Below are positions 382-60,151 of a stretch of DNA of 64,000 nt, piece after piece. Under the pieces are notes generated by a model that had not been told where the DNA came from, made no database searches, and was given only the letters and a program-made list of their open reading frames with translations. Origin of the DNA: Eledone cirrhosa (Eukaryota). How positions within the stretch are numbered: the stretch's first letter is position 1; each line of letters opens with the position of its first letter. Position numbers and translations under genes: made by a program. The stretch spans positions 42,346,001-42,410,000 of the forward strand of contig OZ024751.1 of NCBI GenBank assembly GCA_964016885.1. The letters are read 5' to 3'.

Positions 382-640
382 CTGATTTGAAACATTTTTG
401 GAAGGTTCTGTATTGTTGGAAAGTTTAGATGGTGGTGTCTGAGTTTTTTGTCGATTATTAGAATTACTGGCACTGGTTTGTTTGGTCGACTGTTTAGAGT
501 TGACAAGTTGTTTTATCACAGGTGTCTTCCATTCTTTAAGTAAATGATTTAGAAATATCTGTACTTGGGAGTCAGAAGAATCAAGCAGTTCTTTCATATA
601 TTCTTCAACATCTTGGATATTATCAATAGCAAGAATATAC
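382..640 (-). CDS. TRIP4: TRIP4/ASC-1 homolog, coding exon 2
   Basis: Acceptor ...TCTCCACTAAG at 641-642 and donor GTAATA at 381. Encodes (K)YILAIDNIQDVEEYMKELLDSSDSQVQIFLNHLLKEWK...VSNQ, matching TRIP4 YVLSIESAEEIREYVTDLL...FIEELITKWQK. Phases 2 and 0 are consistent. Confidence 0.85.
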
Positions 641-1222
641 CTTAGTGGAGAGAAGTAAGACACATTTAGAGAAATTTTCTGGGAAAAAAAAAATAGTAAG
701 AAGCACAAATTATTAATAAATTTTAAAATGAACATAAATTTATATTTCTAAATATAAGTAGGTGACTTTTGTGGTTATGAAAACTGAAAAGGAAGAGAAA
801 GACAAGGGCTCTAGCGTCACAGAAGAATGGGAAGGGGGAGTGATGGGCTCTAGGTCTAGGGCGCGGCGGTGACGGATTGATTAAAGTGTCAAACAAAGTT
901 TGATAAAATATTGCTTGTTTTATTGATGTGATTGTCAATGTTGTTGTTGTTATACTGCTAAAAACACTCCCTCCACAATACATATATATATGTGTGTGTG
1001 TATGTATTATTATATTTATTATTATCATTATTAGCACAGAAGATCCCGTAAACAGGTGGAAGAAGAAATTGATTGTTTAAACATTTAATCTGTGCTAGTA
1101 ATAAACACCTACTCTACAGTTATATATATATATATATACCCATACATGCATTATTCTTATCGGGTTCTTTCTGGATTTTGGTCTTTGTATTGATTATTAC
1201 TATAAACAGTTGTGTGTGTGTG

Positions 1223-2007: not shown

Positions 2008-2084
2008 TTGGCATTCTCTTCAGTAATTTCTATGCCCAGCTTGGACAATTCTCCACAAAGCCAATCGACTAAACGAGCAGCCAT
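2008..2084 (-). CDS. TRIP4: TRIP4/ASC-1 (activating signal cointegrator 1) homolog, coding exon 1
   Basis: ATG at 2084 gives MAARLVDWLCGELSKLGIEITEENA plus AA, then a GT donor (GTAAAT) at 2007. It joins in phase to exon 2. The peptide resembles the TRIP4 N-terminus (human LVHWCTQQLRKTFGLDVSEEIIQYVLSI, recalled from memory). Confidence 0.85.
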
Positions 2085-3744: not shown

Positions 3745-4857
3745 TAGTGCCTGGCTCGAGGTGTAGTTAGCTAAAGGAATGTATGACCAGCTACTCCATG
3801 GTCAGTGCCTGGCTAGAGGTGTAGTTAGCTAAAGGAATGCATGACCAGCTACTCCATGGTCAGTGCCTGGCTAGAGGTGTAGTTGGCTAAAGGAATGTAT
3901 GACCAGCTACTCCATGGTCAGTGCCTGGCTCGAGGTGTAGTTGGCTAAAGGAATGTATGACCAGCTACTCCATGGTCAGCACCTGGCTAAAGGAATGTAT
4001 GACCAGCTACTCAATGGTCAGTGCCTGGCTAGAGGTGTAGTTGGCTAAAGGAATGTATGACCAGCTACTCAATGGTCAGTGTCTGGCTAAAGGAATGTAT
4101 GACCAGCTACTCAATGGTCAGTGCCTGGCTCGAGGTGTAGTTGGCTAAAGGAATGTATGACCAGCTACTCCATGGTCAGTGCCTGGCTAAAGGAATGTAT
4201 GACCAGCTACTCCATGGTCAGCACCTGGCTAAAGGAATGTATGACCAGCTACTTAATGGTCAGTGCCTGGCTCGAGGTGTAGTTGGCTAAAGGAATGTAT
4301 GACCAGCTACTCAATGGTCAGTGCCTGGCTAAAGGAATGTATGACCAGCTACTCAATGGTCAGTGCCTGGCTAGAGGTGTAGTTGGCTAAAGGAATGTAT
4401 GACCAGCTACTCAATGGTCAGCACCTGGCTCGAGGTGTAGTTGGCTAAAGGAATGTATGACCAGCTACTTAATGGTCAGTGCCTGGCTAGAGGTGTAGTT
4501 GGCTAAAGGAATGTATGACCAGCTACTTAATGGTCAGTGCCTGGCTAGAGGTGTAGTTGGCTAAAGGAATATATGACCAGCTACTCAATGGTCAGTGCCT
4601 GGCTAGAGGTGTAGTTGGCTAAAGGAATGTATGACCAGCTACTCCATGGTCAGTGCCTGGCTCGAGGTGTAGTTGGCTAAAGGAATGTATGACCAGCTAC
4701 TTAATGGTCAGTGCCTGGCTAGAGGTGTAGTTGACCAAAGGAATGTATGACCAGCTACTCAATGGTCAGTGCCTGGCTAGAGGTGTAGTTGGCTAAAGGA
4801 ATGTATGACCAGTTACTCAATGGTCAGTGCCTGGCTAGAGGTGTAGTTGGCTAAAGG
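3745..4857. repeat. Minisatellite, 58-bp unit interspersed with a 42-bp deletion variant
   Basis: Unit CAGTGCCTGGCTAGAGGTGTAGTTGGCTAAAGGAATGTATGACCAGCTACTCCATGGT, about 20 copies. Confidence 0.95.
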
Positions 4858-4902: not shown

Positions 4903-5597
4903 TGAGTACTCATTCAGTTCATGTTTGAAATGTTTTAAGTACTACCACATTTTATACATCCAAACCATTCTAGTAAGATTTTAATTTAAATACAAACCAT
5001 TTAAAATGGGTTGCTTTGTTTCATAGAACAGAGGCAGATTTTACTGGGTTGGTATCAAAAAGATTAAAAGAACATTTTCTGAAGTAAAATAGTAGGTGCA
5101 AAAGACAAAGGTATTTATTGAGGTTTTTGGTTGGTGATAGGAAGGGCATCCAACCGTAGAAAGTTTGCCAAACAAAGGATTGGGAAGACAGTTTAGTTGT
5201 GTCAAAGACATGGCAACCTCTGTAGGGTTGGCACCATGATAAAATGTATTTGGTAGAGCACGAGACTGTAAATGAGATGCTGACACCCCACTCACACTTG
5301 GCCTGTCTGGGAGGTCAGTAACCGGACTTCAGTACTGCTTCAGTCGGTGAAGACACGTTCTACCCTTGCTAGCAGAGAAAGCAGTCGATGATGATGATAA
5401 TAATAAACAACAAACATCTATCAACAAATGGTTTAGTTAAGTTTAATAAGTATGACCCATGTTATTTTATCTAAAGTTGAATTTTTAATAAGTAGGTCTT
5501 GAAAATATAAAGTAAACATGAATTAAACTAGGTTAAGGGTGGTTGTGGAATTTTGAAATAACAACCCCACGTAAATGGGTATAACTTTCATCATTAT

Positions 5598-6840
5598 TGC
5601 GAAGGCCTTCAATTCTGTGCCACACAAAAGGCTTATGGCAAAACTCTCTGCAATGGGTGTGAAGGATGATCTTTTTAACTGGTTGAAGTCCTTCATTCTC
5701 AGTCGAAGAGAGGTAGTCACGGTTCTGGGACAGCATTCCTCACCATATGAGATGTCATCTGGTGTACCTCAGGGATCTGTTCTTGGCCCCCTTTTGTTTG
5801 TGGCATATATTAATGACATAGATGCCAACTTAAGGAATGCCACAGTACTAAAGTACGCAGACGACATCAAGCTGTACCTTGAGATAAAAAGGACAGATCC
5901 TGAACACTATAGATCTTGCTTGCAGTCTGACCTGGACACAATGCAACAGTGGATCTCAGACTGGCAACTCAAGCTAGCTGTGGACAAGTGCACCACCATG
6001 CATTTTGGGAGTAAAAACCCAGCGTCCACATACTCCCTCCACAGCACTAATATCAAGAAGTCTTCCTGTGAACGTGACCTGGGCATTACGGTCAGCAGCG
6101 ATTTGCATTGGACGAGGCACGTCTCTAAAATTGTCAAGAGGGCCGAGGGTGTCTTAGCATCACTCAGCAAGACCTTTGTCAGCCGCTCTCCAGATATCTA
6201 TTTAAGGCTGTATACAGCTATGGTGCGACCACACTTAGAATTTACATCACCAGTCTGGAACCCCTATCTTGCCCAGGACATTGACCGCCTGGAAACTGTT
6301 CAGAGACGTGCAACCAAGCGAATACCCTCCATCAGGCATCTACCATACTCTGAGCGCCTTGCTTCCCTGGGCATGGATTCATTGAAGCTCCGACGCCTGG
6401 CAACTGACTTGGTAAACACCCACAAAATTATTAACCATGTTGCCAACAACAACCCTGAGTGCCTTTTCGATTTCCATGTGTCTAACACACGTGGACATGC
6501 CCACAAAGTAAGAAAACAGCACAGTTCCCATGACTTTCGGAAACATTTTTTCACGCTCAGAGTTGCTGAAGCATGGAACAAACTACCTGCATCAGTTGTT
6601 AGCTGTCGAGACACTGCATCCTTTAAGGCCTCCATGCTTCCCGAGATCCGCCAACACTACAGCTAACACATACACACATGTACTTCCCTGACATTTGTGT
6701 ATTATTCTATGTACTTACCAGTAATGCACTGGATAATTGCTGGCCTTGTGCCTAACGTAGAAACAATTATTCTATGTACTATATTGACGAGTTGTAGTGC
6801 ACCTGAGCACTTTACACAATAATTTCATTATTATTATTAT
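5598..6840 (+). mobile_element. 5'-truncated CR1-type LINE (ORF2 RT C-terminal half, 3' UTR and (ATT)n tail)
   Basis: ORF with KAFNSVPH, SGVPQGSVLGPLLF, YADD, ERDLG, LYTAMVRPHLE, RGHAHK, WNKLP motifs; stop at 6666; ATT tail ending ~6840. Confidence 0.92.
6716..6765 (+). mobile_element. 5'-truncated SINE A fragment inserted in the CR1 3' UTR, with a 15-bp TSD
   Basis: ATTATTCTATGTACT flanks it at 6701-6715 and 6766-6780. The other CR1 3' UTR copies (7511-7595, 47340-47430) lack the insert. Confidence 0.85.
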
Positions 6841-7595: not shown

Positions 7596-8418
7596 TATAT
7601 ATACACACACACACACACACACGATATTAAAACATGATCTTAAGTAAAAATAAACTCACTTGATTAAACAAGTTAAGAAATTACGTATAAGACCGTTTAC
7701 TGGTCAGCCAATCTATTACTAAGAAACACGCACCTTGTTCTTTCGTTTTCATCCGGGATAAAGAATGGGGTTTTACGCATTAAATAAACACAGTAAATAT
7801 GGAATAAAATAAAGTGAAAGAGAGAACATATTTAAGGGAAACAGTAAATAAATAAGTGTTTGATTTAGGGACAAAGCCAACAATTTGGTGGAGGAGACAG
7901 TTGATTAAATCGACGCCAGTGTCTAATTTGTACTTTATTTTATCGACCACGTAATCATGAAAGGCAAAGGTAACCTCGCTGGGGTTCTAACTCAGAACGT
8001 AAAGGGCCACAACTCTGTGTCGCAAAGCATAATGTAATAATAATAGTAATACATGAATAAAAATTATAAAACGGTTGGTTTAATGGTGGAAGAAATACAA
8101 AGATTGAAAGATTGAAAAGCCAAAATAACCGCAGAAGAGATTCAATGGCATCTAAGAAATCTAAAACTAGATTTAAGAAATATAAAATAAATGCCATACA
8201 GCTTATTCAGTTAATTCAAGATCTTTAGTCTTCAAAGATTTCATATTTTAGAAAATTAACCCAAATTCTCCAAGCTGGAGTTATGTTACTGTAAAGAAGT
8301 CTGAAATAATAAACATTTTAGGTAAAAGTTAGAAAGTCAACGTTTTTTTTTTCTTTGACTAATTGAGAATAAATTTTCAGATCTTTACTATAGAGACTCG
8401 ATCTTTTAAAAAAAATGT

Positions 8419-8928
8419 TCAATGCTGGAGTGTTTCTTTATCAAACATATATTCACCAAGGCCGCTGCCCAACTGCTTCAGTTTGGAAATGTAATCGGAG
8501 ATTTTCTTAATATTTTCAACTTGTTTTCTAAGGACATTCTTCTTAAGAAATCCAACGAGCTGCGGGTCCCCGTATTTTTTACCACACTGGACCAAATTTA
8601 AGAATTGCTGGTTGATATTCTTTTCAATAACGAGAGAATATTCCATGGCAGTGGCACCACAATCCCAAAACGAAGCCTGGGGTGCGCCAATATTCTGTAA
8701 AATAACACGGCCACCACGTTTGTTTTGGTATTCCATAAGCTTATCTGCTTGTTGCAGGTGTTGTTGGTTTAATCGCTCAAAGAAGTGATGGAAACCTTTT
8801 AAAGCAACATCGCTTCTTTCGTAATGGGCAGCTTGGCATTGATTCTCGTATGCTGACTTGAGTAAGACATTGATGCACTCATTCACCATCTCTTCACAGC
8901 ACCGATGATAATTCTGGCGAGCAGACAT
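8419..8928 (-). CDS. Intronless ferritin-family protein (169 aa) with a degenerate ferroxidase centre
   Basis: ATG at 8928 (the ORF-track start at 8937 is TTG). Ferritin motifs RQNYH, DVALKGF, KLMEYQNKRGGR, AME..L..EKN.NQ, DPQL, QVE.IK, GLGEYMFDKETL are present in one uninterrupted ORF. Confidence 0.93.
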   Translation of the reverse strand: MSARQNYHRCCEEMVNECINVLLKSAYENQCQAAHYERSDVALKGFHHFFERLNQQHLQQADKLMEYQNKRGGRVILQNIGAPQASFWDCGATAMEYSLVIEKNINQQFLNLVQCGKKYGDPQLVGFLKKNVLRKQVENIKKISDYISKLKQLGSGLGEYMFDKETLQH

Positions 8929-10256
8929 TTTTAACAATGTTCAATGTTATTTTGTTACGACCGGTGATTGGGCAGAAAATGTTTCCGTGTGAAATATTAC
9001 CGTTGTTTATATCTATATTACAATTTTCAATATATTTACATTTTATTTGCTGGTCTTGTATCAATAGAAACAAATATATTTACAGCTTATATATATATAA
9101 ATACAATACTTAATTACATAAATATCTCATATAAAATCAAAACTAAACAAAACAACAATTCAACACCTGTGTGTCAATGGGTCAGAGACATTAGTTAGTT
9201 TGACTTTATCCACAGTTGTATAAATAACATTACAAATATAATGTCATTGATAAACACAAATATAAACGCATATAACAAATACAATTAACTATTGCTAGGA
9301 ACCTCACAAATTCAACACCAAAATATATGACCAGAGAGAAAGAAAAAGGGGGAAGCAAAAACAACCATCAATTCACCACCAAGTGCGATAATCAGCCGCA
9401 CATCACAAGGCTCAACGAAATATTTTGAAGCAAGCTAACACGCTCGCAGCATTACCACGAGTGATGGCGAGTCTAAGGTGCTGAAACAACCAAGCACCCA
9501 CACGGACATCACCTGACACCTCGGTAAGGCGAGTGGACAGCGATGACAAGAACTTCGCTGTCAGCAGCCCCGCTCCACCAAACGCCACAGGCTGGAAAAA
9601 AATAATTATTAGATAGATCCAGGTATTTCCGAATTTTATTCCGTTCGGTGTATATTTTCATTCTGTAAGAATTATAAACAATTTGTAATGTTATTTATAT
9701 AATCGTGAATAAAGTTAATTATTAGTAGATATACATATACAATGTAAAAAATACAACACATAAACTCTAGGAACTTTAGAACTTTATTAAAACACCATGA
9801 ACATATAAACACAAATTATACAACAAATGTGGTTTAAAAAACAAACAAATCATTGGAAATTAATCACAAAGAGAGAGACAACTCCAAAGAACACTATATG
9901 TGTCTAAAATAACGATTTCTAATGCTTCAATCAGAATGTAGCCATAGAATTACAAGAATAGTTCTTTTAAATGTCTTATACCTTTATAAGAAATTTATTA
10001 TATATATATCGATAGATAGATGTGTGTGTGCGTGAAATAATATCATATAACAAATATGTAAGATTAAATATAAATACAGACATACGTTGAATTAATTATT
10101 GCTAGGAACTTTATAAATATAATGTAATGGGTTAAATATTCCAATGACACGTGTACTTGTGATATAATTCCCAAGCTGAACCATAGTAACACATTCACAG
10201 TTTTTCTTTACCATATTTCAGTCAGAGTTGTTTCCCTTGCATTATTAAACGATTAA

Positions 10257-25710: not shown

Positions 25711-26439
25711 TATGTAGCTTTAATTATATATGGATAAATGTAGTTGGTGTTAGGAAGGGCATCAGGCATGTCGGTGTCATGACAAAAAGCACTGAGTCTA
25801 CACTGTAAATATGATTGATGGTGATGATGATGATGATGAGGATGGTGATGGTGACATTGATGATGAAGGTGATGATGATGACGATGATGATGATGATGAT
25901 GATGATGACAATGATGATGCTATTGATGATGACAGTGATGATGCTATTGATGATGATGATGATTATAGCTGCTTTGTTATGAAAACAGTGTTATACATAA
26001 TTAAAAGAAATAATATCCATCCATCATATATATTCTGATGTCAATGCAATCATGAAATTCTTAATTAAGGATATATGTGGCCTCTGGTATGGAGATTTAA
26101 TGAGAGTTGCTCAGAAATATTGTGAATACACTGTCTATAGTAGGATATATATATATGTATACACTCTCTATAGTAAGATATATATATATATATATACCTG
26201 CCAGACAGTCCACGCTGTAATGTGGCCGTGTAGGCAACACGGTAAAAACCTCCCAGCCCCACACTGTAAATGTGGTTGGTGTTAGGAAGGGCATCCAACT
26301 GTAGAAAACCCGCCAGACAGTCCTATGCGAGCAAGACAACCACTCTTGCCTCAAGTGGGAAAACTCCCGTCCAAACCCATGCAAGCATGGAACACGGACG
26401 TTAAACGATGATGATGATGATGATGATATATATATATAT

Positions 26440-26885
26440 ATACACTGCCTATAGTAAGATACATATATATATATATATACTGTCTATAGTAAGATATATA
26501 TACTGTCTATAGTAAGATATATATACTGTCTATAGTAAGATAAATATACTGCCTATAGTAAGATATATATATACTGCCTATAGTAAGATATATATACTGC
26601 CTATAGTAAATTATATATAAATATACGGCCTATAGTAAGTTATATATGAATATACTGCCTATAGTAAGATATACGTACTGCCTATAGCAAGATATATATA
26701 CACTGCCTATAGTAAGTTATATACACTGCCTATAGTAAGATATATACACTGCCTATAGTAAGTTATATACACTGCCTATAGTAAGCTATATACACTGCCT
26801 ATAGTAAGTTATATACACTGCCTATAGTAAGCTATATACACTGCCTATAGTAAGTTATATAAATGCTATACTGCCTATAGTAAGA
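26440..26885. repeat. ~22-24-bp minisatellite (TACACTGCCTATAGTAAGATATA)
   Basis: About 18 visible copies. Confidence 0.9.
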
Positions 26886-39107: not shown

Positions 39108-40250
39108 TAATAATAATAATGAAATTATTGTGTACAGTGCTCAGGTGCACTACAACTCATCAAAGGTGCATGTATAGTACATAGAATAATGTACAAATGT
39201 CAGGAAAATGAACAGTGTATGAGTCATGATATAATAATAATAATAATAATAATAATGAAATTATTGTGTACAGTACCCAGGTGCACCACAACTCATCAAA
39301 AAGTGCATGTACAGTACATAGGGCAATGCAAAAACATCAGTAAAATGAACAGTGCACGAGTCATGATACACACATGTGTGCATGTGTATGGAAGGGGTAC
39401 ATCAGGTGTAGTTTTGGCATATTTCGGGAAGCATGAGTGTCTTAAAGGATGCAGTGTCTCGGCAGCTAACAACTGATGCAGGCAGTTTGTTCCATGCTTC
39501 AGCAACTCTGAGCATGAAAAAATGTCTACGAAAGTCATGGGAGCTGTGCTGTTTTCTGATTTTGTAGGCATGTCCACGTGTGTTAGACACATGTAGATCA
39601 AAAAGGTGCTCAGGGTTGCAATTGGCGAGATGGTTAATAACTTTGTGGGTATTCACCAAGTCCATTGCCAGACGTCGGAGCTTCAATGAATCCATGCCCA
39701 GGGAAGCAAGGCGTTCAGAGTATGGTAGGTGTCTGATGGAGGGTATGCGCTTGGTTGCACGTCTCTGAACAGTTTCCAGGAGGTCAATGTTCTGAGCAAG
39801 ATAGGGGTTCCAGACTGATGATGCGAATTCCAAGTGTGGTCGTACCATAGCTGTATACAGTTTTAAATAGATGGCTGGAGAGCGGCTAACAAAGGTCTTG
39901 CTGAGTGATGCCAAGACACCTTCGGCCTTCTTGACAATCTTAGAGACATGCTTTGTCCAACGCAAATCACTGCTGACAGTAATGCCCAGGTCACGTTCAC
40001 AAGAAGACTTCTTGATATCAGTGTTGTGGAGGGAGTATGTGGACGCTGGATTTTTCCTTCCAAAATGCATGGTGGTACACTTGTCCACAGCCAGCTTCAG
40101 TTGCCAGTCTGTGATCCATTGCTGCATTGTGTCCAGGTCTGATTGTAGGAAAGAGTTGTAAATTTCAGGATCAGTCCTTTTGATTTCAAGGTACAGCTTG
40201 ATGTCATCTGCATATTTTAGTACCGTGGCATTCTGTAAGTTGGCATCTAT
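39108..40250 (-). mobile_element. 5'-truncated CR1-type LINE with a duplicated 3' UTR
   Basis: Highly similar to the copy at 5598 (KYADD, ERDLG, WNKLP; ORF end 39402). Two 3' UTR/ATT-tail units lie at ~39108-39229 and ~39230-39400. Confidence 0.9.
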
Positions 40251-41284
40251 GGATGTTAAGAGATAATACTGAAAATGTTCACACTTATTTATCCACCAGT
40301 AAAGAAACTATAAACTTTTCTGAATCATTCTGCTGAATCAATACAGGATGTTTAGACATAATATGACAAATAACTTGGTTATTTTCAAAATTAATTGAAA
40401 ATCATGGGCAGTGCGTTTCATTAAAAATATGGTAACGAAAGAGTTAAATCAATATGTATTGATTAATTGCTTAGATACAAGACCAATATTTATTGCTAAG
40501 CTAAACATTGGTTTTATACATCAATTTCTGTGTCAGTTATGGCTGTGGTCACATGACACTTTTATTTACATATTAGTCAGTGGCATGTATTGATGAGCAG
40601 GATGTGTGCCTGTGTGTGTATGTATGTGTGTGTAGTGTGTCAGTGTATGTGTGTTTGGTGTGTGTGTGTAGTGTGTATGTGTGTGTAATGTGTGTGTGTA
40701 TATGTATGTAATGTGTGTGGTGTGTATATGTATGTAATGTGTGTGTGTATATGTATGTAATGTGTGTGTGGTGTATGTGTGTGTGTATATGTATGTAACG
40801 TGTGTGGTGTGTATATGTATGTAATGTGTGTGTGTATATGTATGTAATGTGTGTGTGGTGTGTATATGTATGTAATGTGTGTATATATGTATGTAATGTG
40901 TGTGTGGTGTATGTGTGTGTGTATATGTATGTAACGTGTGTGTGTGTATATGTATGTAATGTGTGTGTGTGTATATGTATGTAATGTGTGTGTGGTGTAT
41001 GTGTGTGTGTATATGTATGTAACATGTGTGTGGTGTGTGTGTATGTGTGTGTATATGTATGTAATGTGTGTGTGTGTGTGTGGTGTGTAATGGAAGGGCT
41101 AAAGAAACAGACAGTGTCTTTCATTAGAAATATGGTAAGAAAAAGGTTAAAACAATTTAGAAAGTATCTCAACAAGAGAATTATTGGTTGCTAAACCTCT
41201 TATCAATAAAATAGCAACAGTCAATTTTGACATTCCTTAGTTTAGCACCAGTTCAACTGTTCATCATTCCGTTAAAATACCATA

Positions 41285-52396: not shown

Positions 52397-53258
52397 CAAG
52401 TTACATCCCTAATATTTTGAAAATTTAAATAAAAGGGTTGATCAAATAGATATCATTTACAAATTTATAAAGTTAACCCCTATTCAATATCTTAATTCAG
52501 TATCTTAATTCCATAGTTATTGTTTGTTTTGTCTGTACACAATATACAATATGGCTGCTGGTGCTGTGTTTAAATGGTAAGTCAAAGAAAGAACTGTTTA
52601 CAAGATATCTCAGCTCTATGAAGAAAAAAAAACAAAAACATTACAAATCTTTCTCTTTTTCTTTTTATCTCTTCTCCTCTTTCTCTCACTCTCTCCTCCT
52701 CTATTTTCCATCATTCTCTTTTCCTTTCTCCCCTCTCTCTTTCTCTTTGTTTCATATTTCTCTCTCCTCTTCTCCTTTTCTCTCTCTCTCTCTCTACCTA
52801 CCTACCTATCTATCTATCTATCTCTCTCTTTTTCTTCCCTTTTCACCATCTTCACCTCTTTCCCCTTTCTCACCATTTACCTCTCTTCCTTTCTCCCTTC
52901 TCTCTTTCTCTCTGTTTCATCTTTCTCTCTCTCTCCTTCTCATCTTTCTCCTCTACTCTCTCTCTCTCTCTCTCTCACCATTTACCTCTCTCTTCCTCTC
53001 TCACACTGTCTCCTATTTCCCTCTCCTCTCCATTTCCCTACCCCATCCATTACTCCGTTCTCCCCATGAAAAACAAGGGTGACTCAGATACCTACCCTCT
53101 CCTATCCCTACCCCCTCAACCGTTCTATTTAACTCAACACATTGCTATAGTATTATTATATTCCGCTAGAATATTGATTCAAATTTTCTTCTGAATTGCT
53201 GATTGAAGTCAATTAAGTCGGATGAGATAATTTCTTTTAATATAAAAAAAAAAATAAC

Positions 53259-56200
53259 CATTGAAACTTCCAACTAAAATACTCAAACATAATATCTTCC
53301 ACAAAATAGACATTCAAACTTCCAACTAAAATATTCAAACATAATATCTGCCACAAAATAGACATTCAAACTTCCAACTAAAATATTCAAACATAATATC
53401 TACCACAAAATAGACATTCAAACTTCCAACTAAAATACTCAAACATAATATCTACCACAAAATAGACATTCAAACTTCCAACTAAAATACTCAAACATAA
53501 TATCTACCACAAAATAGACATTCAAACTTCCAACTAAAATATTCAAACATAATATCTTCCACAAAATAGACATTCAAACTTCCAACTAAAATATTCAAAC
53601 ATAATATCTTCCACAAAATAGACATTCAAACTTCCAACTAAAATATTCAAACATAATATCTACCACAAAATAGACATTGAAACTTCCAACTAAAATACTC
53701 AAACATAATATCTTCCACAAAATAGACATTGAAACTTCCAACTAAAATATTCAAACATAATATCTTCCACAAAATAGACATTGAAACTTCCAACTAAAAT
53801 ATTCAAACATAATATCTTCCACAAAATAGACATTGAAACTTCCAACTAAAATATTCAAACATAATATCTACCACAAAATAGACATTGAAACTTCCAACTA
53901 AAATACTCAAACATAATATCTTCCACAAAATAGACATTGAAACTTCCAACTAAAATATTCAAACATAATATCTTCCACAAAATAGACATTCAAACTTCCA
54001 ACTAAAATATTCAAACATAATATCTACCACAAAATAGACATTCAAACTTCCAACTAAAATACTCAAACATAATATCTACCACAAAATAGACATTCAAACT
54101 TCCAACTAAAATACTCAAACATAATATCTACCACAAAATAGACATTCAAACTTCCAACTAAAATACTCAAACATAATATCTACCACAAAATAGACATTCA
54201 AACTTCCAACTAAAATACTCAAACATAATATCTTCCACAAAATAGACATTGAAACTTCCAACTAAAATACTCAAACATAATATCTACCACAAAATAGACA
54301 TTCAAACTTCCAACTAAAATATTCAAACATAATATCTTCCACAAAATAGACATCGAAACTTCCAACTAAAATATTCAAACATAATATCTACCACAAAATA
54401 GACATTGAAACTTCCAACTAAAATATTCAAACATAATATCTACCACAAAATAGACATTGAAACTTCCAACTAAAATATTCAAACATAATATCTACCACAA
54501 AATAGACATTGAAACTTCCAACTAAAATACTCAAACATAATATCTTCCACAAAATAGACATTGAAACTTCCAACTAAAATATTCAAACATAATATCTTCC
54601 ACAAAATAGACATTGAAACTTCCAACTAAAATATTCAAACATAATATCTTCCACAAAATAGACATTCAAACTTCCAACTAAAATATTCAAACATAATATC
54701 TACCACAAAATAGACATTCAAACTTCCAACTAAAATACTCAAACATAATATCTACCACAAAATAGACATTCAAACTTCCAACTAAAATACTCAAACATAA
54801 TATCTACCACAAAATAGACATTCAAACTTCCAACTAAAATACTCAAACATAATATCTACCACAAAATAGACATTCAAACTTCCAACTAAAATATTCAAAC
54901 ATAATATCTTCCACAAAATAGACATTCAAACTTCCAACTAAAATATTCAAACATAATATCTTCCACAAAATAGACATTCAAACTTCCAACTAAAATATTC
55001 AAACATAATATCTACCACAAAATAGACATTGAAACTTCCAACTAAAATACTCAAACATAATATCTTCCACAAAATAGACATTGAAACTTCCAACTAAAAT
55101 ATTCAAACATAATATCTTCCACAAAATAGACATTGAAACTTCCAACTAAAATATTCAAACATAATATCTTCCACAAAATAGACATTGAAACTTCCAACTA
55201 AAATATTCAAACATAATATCTACCACAAAATAGACATTGAAACTTCCAACTAAAATACTCAAACATAATATCTTCCACAAAATAGACATTGAAACTTCCA
55301 ACTAAAATATTCAAACATAATATCTTCCACAAAATAGACATTCAAACTTCCAACTAAAATATTCAAACATAATATCTACCACAAAATAGACATTCAAACT
55401 TCCAACTAAAATACTCAAACATAATATCTACCACAAAATAGACATTCAAACTTCCAACTAAAATACTCAAACATAATATCTACCACAAAATAGACATTCA
55501 AACTTCCAACTAAAATACTCAAACATAATATCTACCACAAAATAGACATTCAAACTTCCAACTAAAATACTCAAACATAATATCTTCCACAAAATAGACA
55601 TTGAAACTTCCAACTAAAATACTCAAACATAATATCTACCACAAAATAGACATTCAAACTTCCAACTAAAATATTCAAACATAATATCTTCCACAAAATA
55701 GACATCGAAACTTCCAACTAAAATATTCAAACATAATATCTACCACAAAATAGACATTGAAACTTCCAACTAAAATATTCAAACATAATATCTACCACAA
55801 AATAGACATTGAAACTTCCAACTAAAATATTCAAACATAATATCTACCACAAAATAGACATTGAAACTTCCAACTAAAATACTCAAACATAATATCTTCC
55901 ACAAAATAGACATTGAAACTTCCAACTAAAATATTCAAACATAATATCTTCCACAAAATAGACATTGAAACTTCCAACTAAAATATTCAAACATAATATC
56001 TTCCACAAAATAGACATTCAAACTTCCAACTAAAATATTCAAACATAATATCTACCACAAAATAGACATTCAAACTTCCAACTAAAATACTCAAACATAA
56101 TATCTACCACAAAATAGACATTCAAACTTCCAACTAAAATACTCAAACATAATATCTACCACAAAATAGACATTCAAACTTCCAACTAAAATATTCAAAC

Positions 56201-59200
56201 ATAATATCTTCCACAAAATAGACATTCAAACTTCCAACTAAAATATTCAAACATAATATCTTCCACAAAATAGACATTCAAACTTCCAACTAAAATATTC
56301 AAACATAATATCTACCACAAAATAGACATTGAAACTTCCAACTAAAATACTCAAACATAATATCTTCCACAAAATAGACATTGAAACTTCCAACTAAAAT
56401 ATTCAAACATAATATCTTCCACAAAATAGACATTGAAACTTCCAACTAAAATATTCAAACATAATATCTTCCACAAAATAGACATTGAAACTTCCAACTA
56501 AAATATTCAAACATAATATCTACCACAAAATAGACATTGAAACTTCCAACTAAAATACTCAAACATAATATCTTCCACAAAATAGACATTGAAACTTCCA
56601 ACTAAAATATTCAAACATAATATCTTCCACAAAATAGACATTCAAACTTCCAACTAAAATATTCAAACATAATATCTACCACAAAATAGACATTCAAACT
56701 TCCAACTAAAATACTCAAACATAATATCTACCACAAAATAGACATTCAAACTTCCAACTAAAATACTCAAACATAATATCTACCACAAAATAGACATTCA
56801 AACTTCCAACTAAAATACTCAAACATAATATCTACCACAAAATAGACATTCAAACTTCCAACTAAAATACTCAAACATAATATCTTCCACAAAATAGACA
56901 TTGAAACTTCCAACTAAAATACTCAAACATAATATCTACCACAAAATAGACATTCAAACTTCCAACTAAAATATTCAAACATAATATCTTCCACAAAATA
57001 GACATCGAAACTTCCAACTAAAATATTCAAACATAATATCTACCACAAAATAGACATTGAAACTTCCAACTAAAATATTCAAACATAATATCTACCACAA
57101 AATAGACATTGAAACTTCCAACTAAAATATTCAAACATAATATCTACCACAAAATAGACATTGAAACTTCCAACTAAAATACTCAAACATAATATCTTCC
57201 ACAAAATAGACATTGAAACTTCCAACTAAAATATTCAAACATAATATCTTCCACAAAATAGACATTGAAACTTCCAACTAAAATATTCAAACATAATATC
57301 TTCCACAAAATAGACATTCAAACTTCCAACTAAAATATTCAAACATAATATCTACCACAAAATAGACATTCAAACTTCCAACTAAAATACTCAAACATAA
57401 TATCTACCACAAAATAGACGTTCAAACTTCCAACTAAAATACTCAAACATAATATCTACCACAAAATAGACATTCAAACTTCCAACTAAAATACTCAAAC
57501 ATAATATCTTCCACAAAATAGACATTGAAACTTCCAACTAAAATACTCAAACATAATATCTACCACAAAATAGACATTCAAACTTCCAACTAAAATATTC
57601 AAACATAATATCTTCCACAAAATAGATATCGAAACTTCCAACTAAAATATTCAAACATAATATCTACCACAAAATAGACATTGAAACTTCCAACTAAAAT
57701 ACTCAAACATAATATCTTCCACAAAATAGACATTCAAACTTCCAACTAAAATATTCAAACATAATATCTACCACAAAATAGACATTCAAACTTCCAACTA
57801 AAATACTCAAACATAATATCTACCACAAAATAGACATTCAAACTTCCAACTAAAATACTCAAACATAATATCTACCACAAAATAGACATTCAAACTTCCA
57901 ACTAAAATACTCAAACATAATATCTACCACAAAATAGACATTCAAACTTCCAACTAAAATACTCAAACATAATATCTTCCACAAAATAGACATTGAAACT
58001 TCCAACTAAAATACTCAAACATAATATCTACCACAAAATAGACATTCAAACTTCCAACTAAAATATTCAAACATAATATCTTCCACAAAATAGACATCGA
58101 AACTTCCAACTAAAATATTCAAACATAATATCTACCACAAAATAGACATTGAAACTTCCAACTAAAATATTCAAACATAATATCTACCACAAAATAGACA
58201 TTGAAACTTCCAACTAAAATATTCAAACATAATATCTACCACAAAATAGACATTGAAACTTCCAACTAAAATACTCAAACATAATATCTTCCACAAAATA
58301 GACATTGAAACTTCCAACTAAAATATTCAAACATAATATCTTCCACAAAATAGACATTGAAACTTCCAACTAAAATATTCAAACATAATATCTTCCACAA
58401 AATAGACATTCAAACTTCCAACTAAAATATTCAAACATAATATCTACCACAAAATAGACATTCAAACTTCCAACTAAAATACTCAAACATAATATCTACC
58501 ACAAAATAGACGTTCAAACTTCCAACTAAAATACTCAAACATAATATCTACCACAAAATAGACATTCAAACTTCCAACTAAAATACTCAAACATAATATC
58601 TTCCACAAAATAGACATTGAAACTTCCAACTAAAATACTCAAACATAATATCTACCACAAAATAGACATTCAAACTTCCAACTAAAATATTCAAACATAA
58701 TATCTTCCACAAAATAGATATCGAAACTTCCAACTAAAATATTCAAACATAATATCTACCACAAAATAGACATTGAAACTTCCAACTAAAATACTCAAAC
58801 ATAATATCTACCACAAAATAGACATTCAAACTTCCAACTAAAATATTCAAACATAATATCTACCACAAAATAGACATTCAAACTTCCAACTAAAATATTC
58901 AAACATAATATCTTCAACAAAATAGACATTCAAACTTCCAACTAAAATATTCAAACATAATATCTTCCACAAAATAGACATTGAAACTTCCAACTAAAAT
59001 ATTCAAACATAATATCTTCCACAAAATAGACATTGAAACTTCCAACTAAAATATTCAAACATAATATCTACCACAAAATAGACATTGAAACTTCCAACTA
59101 AAATATTCAAACATAATATCTACCACAAAATAGACATTGAAACTTCCAACTAAAATATTCAAACATAATATCTACCACAAAATAGACATTCAAACTTCCA

Positions 59201-60151
59201 ACTAAAATATTCAAACATAATATCTACCACATAATAGACATTCAAACTTCCAACTAAAATACTCAAACATAATATCTTCCACAAAATATACATTCAAACT
59301 TCCAACTAAAATACTCAAACATAATATCTTCCACAAAATAGACATTGAAACTTCCAACTAAAATATTCAAACATAATATCTACCACAAAATAGACATTGA
59401 AACTTCCAACTAAAATATTCAAACATAATATCTACCACAAAATAGACATTGAAACTTCCAACTAAAATATTCAAACATAATATCTACCACAAAATAGACA
59501 TTGAAACTTCCAACTAAAATACTCAAACATAATATCTACCACAAAATAGACATTCAAACTTCCAACTAAAATATTCAAACATAATATCTACCACAAAATA
59601 GACATTCAAACTTCCAACTAAAATATTCAAACATAATATCTTCAACAAAATAGACATTCAAACTTCCAACTAAAATATTCAAACATAATATCTTCCACAA
59701 AATAGACATTGAAACTTCCAACTAAAATATTCAAACATAATATCTTCCACAAAATAGACATTGAAACTTCCAACTAAAATATTCAAACATAATATCTACC
59801 ACAAAATAGACATTGAAACTTCCAACTAAAATATTCAAACATAATATCTACCACAAAATAGACATTGAAACTTCCAACTAAAATATTCAAACATAATATC
59901 TACCACAAAATAGACATTCAACTTCCAACTAAAATATTCAAACATAATATCTACCACATAATAGACATTCAAACTTCCAACTAAAATACTCAAACATAAT
60001 ATCTTCCACAAAATAGACATTCAAACTTCCAACTAAAATACTCAAACATAATATCTACCACAAAATAGACATTCAAACTTCCAACTAAAATATTCAAACA
60101 TAATATCTTCCACAAAATAGACATTGAAACTTCCAACTAAAATACTCAAAC
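53259..60151. repeat. 52-bp satellite array, ~132 copies
   Basis: Unit CATT(C/G)AAACTTCCAACTAAAATA(C/T)TCAAACATAATATCT(A/T)CCACAAAATAGA. Confidence 0.98.

What the first reader, a model, noticed from the sequence alone, without database searches (positions are those of the whole stretch)
8419..8928. Intact intronless ferritin that has lost its ferroxidase centre and acidic iron channel
By manual alignment to human H-ferritin numbering: E27 to L, Y34 to N, E61 to Q, E62 to H, H65 to Q, E140 to K, and three-fold channel D131 to G and E134 to K. Only E107 and Q141 are kept. The ORF is nevertheless full length, has six Cys and no intron, and no CAGUG IRE loop is visible in ~300 nt upstream. Inference: a retroposed, neofunctionalised non-ferroxidase ferritin (analogous to mammalian FTHL17), possibly a structural, germline or other-metal/nucleic-acid-binding cage.
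Basis: partly seen in the sequence, partly recalled or inferred. Interest (0 to 1): 0.7.

Follow-up and report, generated by a model that had tools for sequence, protein, structure and literature searches.

The report
Octopus ferritin with reversed iron gate
Octopuses and argonauts share an intact extra ferritin gene that has lost the residues ferritins use to admit and oxidise iron and carries positive charges in their place, so it likely still builds cages but probably dampens rather than performs iron storage, much like a known but little-studied class of 'atypical' animal ferritins.

Summary
Window 8419-8928 (minus strand) is an uninterrupted 169-aa ferritin ORF.

It is not a private pseudogene. 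Orthologues in Octopus vulgaris/sinensis, O. bimaculoides, an unnamed run and Argonauta hians (72-83% identical, no indels) share nearly all the same substitutions. Sites conserved across ferritins stay conserved (52 of 61, against 17 of 36 variable sites; p=1.4e-4).

New here: the three-fold-channel segment is charge-reversed, +3 in 5 of 5 octopod proteins against a mean of -3.2 (maximum -1) in 146 other ferritins. The fold, the dimer surface and the four-fold helix E are kept. Octopus also has two normal ferritins.

The protein meets the published definition of invertebrate 'atypical ferritins' and converges on mammalian FTHL17 without being its orthologue. Retroposition is plausible but unproven. 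'Six Cys' is not conserved. Tissue, dN/dS and activity are untested. Best guess: a non-catalytic, cation-repelling subunit that dampens iron uptake. New member of a known kind.

The parts
8419..8928 (-). Single-exon ORF, 169-aa atypical ferritin (P0001)
   Evidence: AlphaFold2 mean pLDDT 93.9, helices 9-36, 44-70, 91-118, 122-153, 157-167; TM 0.94-0.97 to solved ferritins
8842..8865 (-). Helix A ferroxidase positions replaced: L22 (E27) and N29 (Y34)
   Evidence: invariant in 5 of 5 octopod proteins; E in 144 and Y in 146 of 146 others
8749..8763 (-). Helix B positions replaced: Q56 (E61), H57 (E62), L58 (R63), Q59 (E64), Q60 (H65)
   Evidence: H57 and Q60 invariant in 5 of 5; Q56 in 4 of 5 (Argonauta keeps E)
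8689..8727 (-). QNKRGGR / BC-loop start, two-fold dimer surface, conserved
   Evidence: residues 68-80: 12 of 13 invariant in octopods, 10 of 13 equal to the majority residue of other ferritins; lies in the modelled dimer interface
8623..8625 (-). E102 (E107), retained ferroxidase site B ligand
   Evidence: invariant in all 151 rows
8536..8592 (-). Three-fold channel segment, residues 113-131, charge-reversed: V113 (H118), K117, K118, G126 (D131), K129 (E134), K130
   Evidence: net +3 in 5 of 5 octopod proteins; mean -3.16, range -6 to -1 in 146 others; K117 in 0, K129 in 0, K130 in 2 of 146
8521..8526 (-). K135 (E140 replaced) and Q136 (Q141 kept)
   Evidence: both invariant in 5 of 5
8422..8469 (-). 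Helix E / four-fold channel segment, conserved, with E165 (= E168 metal site of marine invertebrate ferritins)
   Evidence: 13 of 16 invariant, 13 of 16 equal to the canonical majority; E168 role from PMC8961696 and PMC9785301 passages
8929..9228 (-). Upstream region without IRE; CCAAT at 8967-8971 (possible promoter element, inferred)
8079..8084 (-). ATTAAA, candidate polyadenylation signal about 335 nt past the stop (inferred, untested)

Best explanation
This is an intact, single-exon, octopod-wide ferritin paralogue that has lost its ferroxidase and iron-channel residues, is predicted to still assemble into ferritin cages, and likely acts as a non-catalytic, cation-repelling subunit that dampens iron uptake when mixed with the animal's normal ferritins. 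Shown: intact ORF, conserved substitutions, purifying-type pattern of change, reversed charge of the three-fold segment, kept fold and helix E, separate normal paralogues in Octopus. Inferred: no ferroxidase activity (from mutagenesis of the same sites in other ferritins); cage assembly (from conservation and models); origin by retroposition in the octopod stem. Least certain: co-assembly with normal subunits, so that lysine-lined pores slow Fe2+ entry and leave more Fe2+ free, in a restricted tissue and without IRE control.
For: Intact orthologues at 72-83% identity with no indel in the 169-aa core; one clade, SH-aLRT 100, on a very long stem of 0.93+0.56 (quick tree). Sites conserved in other ferritins and kept here are invariant in 52 of 61, against 17 of 36 variable sites (Fisher p=1.4e-4). 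Neutral substitution to 83% or 72% identity left the ORF stop-free in only 42 and 9 of 400 runs. E62K alone abolishes activity in FTHL17 (PMC7760355 section 5). E25A/E60A/E105A and D129A/E132A cut Fe2+ oxidation in sea-cucumber ferritin while cages still form (PMC9785301 passages). Self-association model: score 0.69, best of 3 controls 0.00, runs agree in at least 95% of contacts, pLDDT at least 86; the mark was reached by 21 of 30 solved microbial pairs and 0 of 23 single chains, by 17 of 29 eukaryotic pairs (animals 7 of 16), but by only 1 of 7 without an older solved relative, so the pass may be memory of solved ferritins. Precedent for mixing: sponge atypical HdF2 was detected with the major ferritins in native complexes (PMC8395497 Discussion). 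O. vulgaris has two ferritins with intact centres (PMC10142993 supplement S1).
Against: No tissue, protein-level or activity evidence exists for this gene. Only 14 of 28 modelled dimer-interface residues equal the canonical majority residue, so it may prefer to pair with itself rather than mix. The new residues as a class are not significantly constrained (16 of 24 invariant; p=0.19 against variable sites). Three of the five proteins are 93-95% identical, so there are only about three independent lineages. The O. vulgaris ink proteome holds both normal ferritins but none of 3 searched strings of this clade (file cut when stored). A simple brake needs only loss of the acids, not three invariant lysines, which leaves room for a cargo-selecting role. 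E107, Q141 and the four-fold E165 remain, so some metal binding is possible.
Confidence: 0.42

Rival explanations
1. A homopolymeric, iron-free cage whose basic three-fold pores and net-positive lumen admit or hold anions (phosphate, nucleotides, oxyanions, small nucleic acids) instead of Fe2+.
For: Channel segment +3 in 5 of 5 against at most -1 in 146. Eleven lumen-facing positions (chosen from recalled human H structure) sum to +2 in 5 of 5 against a mean of -7.4, maximum -5. pI 7.0-8.7 against mean 5.1. Dimer interface half remodelled but 19 of 28 invariant within octopods.
Against: No cargo evidence. 13 of 122 divergent ferritin representatives also have a net-positive segment, including rodent FTHL17-type proteins, so basic drift recurs after iron handling is lost. 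A paper search on reversed-charge channel mutants found nothing.
Confidence: 0.18
2. An FTHL17-like germline or nuclear protein that works through partner binding or Fe2+ hand-over rather than through its cage.
For: Same syndrome as FTHL17: dead centre, basic residue at the E134 column in 2 rodent FTHL17-type proteins. FTHL17 is germ-cell-expressed and partly nuclear (PMC7760355); Fthl17c raises nuclear Fe2+ and binds TET1 (PMC13149808 abstract and passages). Intronless duplicates are often testis-biased (recalled).
Against: No expression by tissue was obtained. Only 37% identical to a lemming FTHL17, lower than to ordinary invertebrate ferritins (up to 52%). The octopod protein is far more conserved at assembly surfaces than this role needs.
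Confidence: 0.2
3. A ferritin rewired to bind copper or zinc at a remnant intra-subunit site (H57, E102, Q136, N139, possibly C18), relevant to copper-based blood in cephalopods.
For: H57, E102, Q136, N139, C11, C18 and C115 are invariant in 5 of 5; E62 became His rather than Lys; mollusc ferritins bind Cu at the centre and channel (PMC8961696).
Against: The Cu entry residues (D129/E132 in Tegillarca) are the ones replaced by G and K, which would repel Cu2+ too. C11 is common in ordinary ferritins (70 of 146). Total Cys is 4-6 and unstable. Site geometry was not examined.
Confidence: 0.12
4. A processed pseudogene or freely decaying retrocopy.
For: No intron, no IRE, very long stem branch; dN/dS not measured.
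Against: Intact and indel-free in 5 of 5 proteins across Octopus and Argonauta; constraint tracks ferritin conservation (p=1.4e-4); neutral survival 9 of 400 at 72% identity even without indels.
Confidence: 0.03

Closest known systems
Invertebrate 'atypical ferritins' (Adameyko et al. 2021, PMC8395497; sponge HdF2, EmF2)
   Same: No signal peptide, under 49% identity to human H, more than five replacements in the functional sites, no IRE, alongside conserved paralogues; function unknown.
   Different: HdF2 has E27Q, E61S, E62K, H65S, E134A; here the channel is fully reversed (H118V, D131G, E134K plus two more Lys) and is shown to be fixed across a whole animal clade. The paper's main text does not mention Octopus; its supplement could not be read.
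Mammalian FTHL17 / Fthl17 family
   Same: Ferritin fold without ferroxidase residues; some rodent members also carry N131/K134.
   Different: Not orthologous (37% identity). Human FTHL17 changes only E62K and E61D in the centre (PMC7760355), whereas this protein loses 4 of 6 centre residues plus E61. Germline expression and nuclear location are untested here.
Mollusc H-type 'soma' ferritins (Tegillarca 6kzy; Octopus A0A6P7TH79 / LOC115223217)
   Same: Fold (TM 0.95, rmsd about 1 A), length, helix E, four-fold Glu, xRGG motif; databases name the orthologues 'soma ferritin'.
   Different: Ferroxidase centre, three-fold acids, IRE and (in a bivalve) three introns are absent here; the annotation hides this.
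Vertebrate L-chain ferritin (FTL; features recalled)
   Same: Non-catalytic subunit of a ferritin cage.
   Different: L chains keep an acidic channel and lumen glutamates that nucleate the mineral; here those positions are R52, Q55, Q56, Q59 and the channel is basic, so it should not assist mineralisation.

Membership tests
Ferritin (PF00210, animal cytosolic type) | Four-helix bundle plus short helix E; profile score above cut-off | tested here: met
   78.2 bits against cut-off 24.5; five helices, pLDDT 93.9; TM 0.94-0.97
Ferritin (PF00210, animal cytosolic type) | 24-subunit cage | tested here: inconclusive
   Only a four-copy model; the listed interface is the two-fold dimer and may be from memory of solved ferritins
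H-type / soma ferritin | Ferroxidase centre E27, Y34, E62, H65, E107, Q141 | tested here: not met
   2 of 6 kept, in 5 of 5 octopod proteins
H-type / soma ferritin | Three-fold channel H118, D131, E134 | tested here: not met
   V/A, G, K
H-type / soma ferritin | 5' IRE hairpin | tested here: not met
   None in 3,072 nt upstream; no Rfam IRE; a more distant 5' exon is not excluded
L-type ferritin | Lumen nucleation glutamates and Lys at position 62 (positions recalled) | tested here: not met
   R52, Q55, Q56, Q59; His at 62
Atypical invertebrate ferritins (PMC8395497) | No signal peptide | tested here: met
   Ferritin alignment starts at residue 3; no N-terminal extension; no predictor run
Atypical invertebrate ferritins (PMC8395497) | [quoted passage not shown] | tested here: met
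   39-40% to human H chains in structure alignments; 8 replacements in centre and channel alone, counting E61; definition
Atypical invertebrate ferritins (PMC8395497) | Nearly all lack an IRE | tested here: met
FTHL17 | Orthology to the mammalian X-linked gene | tested here: not met
   37% to lemming FTHL17 against up to 52% to invertebrate ferritins; FTHL17 was not in the tree
FTHL17 | Germ-cell expression and partial nuclear location | not testable with these tools
   No tissue-resolved data reached
Retrogene | Loss of the parent's introns | tested here: inconclusive
   No coding intron here; a bivalve gene has three introns, but some sponge ferritin genes are intronless and the Octopus parent's structure was not seen
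Retrogene | Poly(A) remnant and target-site duplication | tested here: not met
   Longest flanking direct repeat 10 nt; only an A10 run about 66 nt past the stop; expected to decay in an old copy
Retrogene | Located away from the parent locus | tested here: inconclusive
   No second ferritin in the 64-kb window; no whole genome held

The most novel reading that the evidence does not exclude
Octopods evolved, and have kept since the Octopus-Argonauta split, a natural charge-inverted ferritin nanocage: lysine-lined three-fold pores and a positive lumen that select anions or nucleic acids instead of Fe2+, the first clade-wide case of a ferritin shell repurposed for a non-metal cargo.
Probability: 0.15. 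Interest if true: 0.72.

Novelty: new member of a known kind. Interest (0 to 1): 0.4.

Why it matters
Non-catalytic ferritins recur across animals (FTHL17, sponge HdF2, the atypical class at 18% of non-insect invertebrate ferritins in PMC8395497), and their function is an open question. This one is a clean test case: single copy in the window, intact across a clade, with a normal paralogue as control and an unusually complete, conserved inversion of channel and lumen charge. It is small and easy to express. If it throttles mixed cages, it is an 'anti-L-chain' control on iron storage. If it takes anionic cargo, it is a natural template for ferritin nanocarriers. It also corrects annotation: the orthologues are filed as ordinary 'soma ferritin'.

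Tried and rejected
Expression: no RNA holder listed; this is no evidence either way. One run of a second sample and unrecorded kind (X4) has a 907-nt contig over 7991-8897 at depth 88.8 against 2.3-6.9 for its three other listed single-copy pieces, and its repeat depths are uneven relative to X1. That looks like an RNA library, but the run was found with this gene, contig depth cannot rank genes, and the contig end near 7991 coincides with a repeat where the other runs also break, so it is not used as evidence.

dN/dS and synteny: no genome held; metagenome scan gave 199 pattern matches, none a relative.

Squid, cuttlefish or nautilus orthologues: none among the top 120 of either word-based search (next best hits 52% and below, canonical) or the top 150 at 50% clustering (where a close orthologue would hide inside the P0002 cluster). 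Restriction to octopods is therefore unproven.

Fossil IRE: a look-alike 30-50 nt upstream scored 20, reached by 289 of 1000 shuffles and 127 of 426 window tiles; rejected. Cys-rich metal cage: rejected as a conserved trait. Host gene: a weak PAP2_C hit at 26100-26483 lies in repeat-like sequence among microsatellites; rejected. The careful tree did not finish; the quick tree does not place the clade. ESM Atlas gave only generic ferritin clusters.

Literature: no paper with the five accession numbers, and none on this paralogue in the listings. Supplements of two octopus gonad/testis papers had no 'ferritin' hit. Supplements of PMC8395497 and PMC11431876 could not be read; the first may already list the Octopus orthologue. 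Search for D131H/E134H channel mutants found nothing.

Full report
Observation. The minus strand of 8419-8928 encodes an uninterrupted 169-aa protein that scores as Ferritin PF00210 at 7e-22. It aligns without gaps to marine invertebrate ferritins of known structure and folds as a four-helix bundle plus helix E (pLDDT 93.9; TM 0.94-0.97 to solved ferritins, 39-40% identity to human H chains). Using the Tegillarca ferritin alignment and that paper's residue list (PMC8961696, passages), human numbering is query + 5. All listed changes are real: E27L, Y34N, E61Q, E62H, H65Q, E140K, D131G, E134K, with E107 and Q141 kept; H118V is lost as well. In 146 close ferritins these columns hold the canonical residue in 140-146 rows and the query residue in none. 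Contigs of three runs of one sample span the ORF with no difference, so this is unlikely to be an assembly error, though those may be the assembly's own reads. No IRE was found in 3,072 nt upstream, and a faint look-alike was at chance level.

What it is. The two searches of the 90% collection each returned only two close clusters: P0002 (81%) and Argonauta hians GAB1605196 (72%). The P0002 cluster holds O. vulgaris/O. sinensis (CAI9734148, XP_029646262) and O. bimaculoides (XP_014786113), all named 'soma ferritin'. The five proteins have the same 169-aa core with no indel and share L22, N29, H57, Q60, E102, G126, K129, K135 and Q136; Argonauta alone keeps E61. They form one clade (SH-aLRT 100) on a very long stem in a quick tree of 151 rows; the careful search did not finish and the clade's origin is unresolved (9 of the 160 proteins then held were left out by a 150-200 aa filter). 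The gene therefore predates the Octopus-Argonauta split (recalled as Cretaceous in age; not checked). O. vulgaris has two further ferritins with intact centres and channels (PMC10142993 supplement S1 rows). Read by eye, one of them (A0A6P7TH79) shares four residues with this clade that are rare elsewhere (E13, S98, K111, G134: 2, 11, 1 and 6 of 146, none with more than two together; the window's own protein has N111 and R134). This hints at a duplication inside cephalopods, but overall identity to it is only about 45% by eye, so it is a hint. No squid or cuttlefish orthologue was seen, but the searches cannot exclude one.

Selection. Positions conserved in other ferritins and kept here are invariant among the five in 52 of 61 cases, against 17 of 36 at variable positions (p=1.4e-4). 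Neutral substitution of the real CDS left it stop-free in 42 of 400 runs at 83% identity and 9 of 400 at 72%, ignoring indels. A pseudogene is thus unlikely. Against over-reading: three proteins are 93-95% alike, so there are about three independent lineages; the 24 'lost' positions are invariant in 16, not significantly above variable sites (p=0.19); and dN/dS could not be computed.

Anatomy. Assembly surfaces are kept: helix E 13 of 16 invariant, the QNKRGGR loop 12 of 13. A four-copy model gave the usual two-fold dimer (score 0.69, best control 0.00, at least 95% contact agreement, pLDDT at least 86; mark reached by 21 of 30 microbial pairs and 0 of 23 single chains, 17 of 29 eukaryotic pairs, but only 1 of 7 without a solved relative, so it may be memory). 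Of its 28 interface residues 19 are invariant in octopods and 14 match the canonical majority. The iron path, in contrast, is inverted. Residues 113-131 carry +3 in 5 of 5 proteins against a mean of -3.2 and a maximum of -1 in 146 others; K117, K129 and K130 are invariant and occur in 0, 0 and 2 of 146. Eleven lumen-facing positions, picked from recalled human H structure, sum to +2 in all five against -7.4. The L-chain nucleation glutamates (recalled positions) are gone too. The four-fold glutamate E165 (E168 in Tegillarca and sea cucumber) is kept. Six Cys is particular to this species: orthologues have 4-5 and three are invariant. The inversion is rare but not unique: of 148 further representatives at 50% clustering, 122 could be scored and 13 had a net-positive segment, one reaching +3; named ones include rodent FTHL17-type proteins. 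Degenerate centres are common in that set: 45 of 132 keep three or fewer of six residues.

How it likely works. Loss of ferroxidase activity is inferred with high confidence (about 0.9): E62K alone inactivates FTHL17 (PMC7760355 section 5, citing Ruzzenenti 2015, not seen), and alanine mutants of the centre and channel cut oxidation in a sea-cucumber ferritin that still forms cages (PMC9785301 passages). What selection keeps is the shell. My preferred mechanism (0.42) is a brake: subunits with lysine-lined pores and no nucleation sites join cages of normal ferritin and slow Fe2+ entry, leaving more Fe2+ free, independent of IRE control. The precedent is sponge HdF2, detected with the major ferritins in native complexes (PMC8395497 sections 2.2 and 3), and mouse Fthl17c, which raises labile Fe2+ (PMC13149808 abstract and passages). 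Rivals are an FTHL17-like germline or nuclear role (0.2), an anion-selecting homopolymer (0.18), a Cu/Zn site around H57 and E102 (0.12) and a pseudogene (0.03). None has direct support; tissue and activity are unknown.

Origin. The coding region has no intron, a bivalve ferritin gene has four exons and an IRE (PMC3144951 passages), and no other ferritin lies in the 64 kb, which fits retroposition. But there is no poly(A) or target-site trace, the parent's structure was not seen, and some sponge ferritin genes are intronless. The gene sits about 6.3 kb upstream of the TRIP4 start on the same strand, among LINE and SINE-like repeats.

Comparison with what is known. Adameyko et al. 2021 (PMC8395497; abstract, passages, sections 2.2 and 3 read; supplement unreadable) define atypical ferritins as signal-peptide-less with under 49% identity to human H or more than five functional replacements, nearly all without IRE, 18% of non-insect invertebrate ferritins, function unknown. 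This protein meets each criterion. It fails the H-type and L-type tests and is not an FTHL17 orthologue (37%), though it likely works in a similar vein. I found no paper on this octopod paralogue (open-access library only); passages of PMC7850002, PMC11719527 and bioRxiv 2021.07.10.451900 did not treat it. Earlier notes of this scan describe other dead-centre ferritins in sharks, fungi and phage (unchecked), none like this sequence.

Verdict. Real, conserved and mis-annotated; a new member of a known kind whose distinctive trait is a clade-wide inversion of channel and lumen charge. Interest 0.4.

Noticed in passing
window 2008-2084 and about 382-678, minus strand: First two coding exons of a TRIP4/ASC-1 gene (TRI4_N, PF23135, E=1e-9; exon 1 translated); a possible synteny anchor for the ferritin.
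   Followed up: partly
window 53251-60151: Satellite of 133 copies of a 52-bp unit at 97% match, with a strong GC skew.
   Followed up: no
window 3746-4857: Tandem array mixing 58-bp and 42-bp units, 84-98% match, between TRIP4 and the ferritin.
   Followed up: no
window 5575-6666 (+) and 39402-40307 (-): Two related LINE reverse-transcriptase fragments (RVT_1).
   Followed up: no
proteins P0065 and P0142 (unnamed sources): A second, independent pair of degenerate invertebrate-type ferritins with K27, R62, H140 and Y141 but a kept D131.
   Followed up: partly
window 8929-8943, minus strand: The 15 nt before the ATG read in frame as a five-codon stretch sharing N and K with the MNLRK extension annotated for O. 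bimaculoides, suggesting that extension is an upstream in-frame ATG in the 5' UTR and that the UTR is colinear.
   Followed up: no
P0001 residues 37, 66, 70: The modelled dimer contact 37-66 pairs two acids where other ferritins have Asp and Lys (K71E fixed in 5 of 5), with an invariant K70 beside it; the dimer surface may be re-keyed.
   Followed up: no
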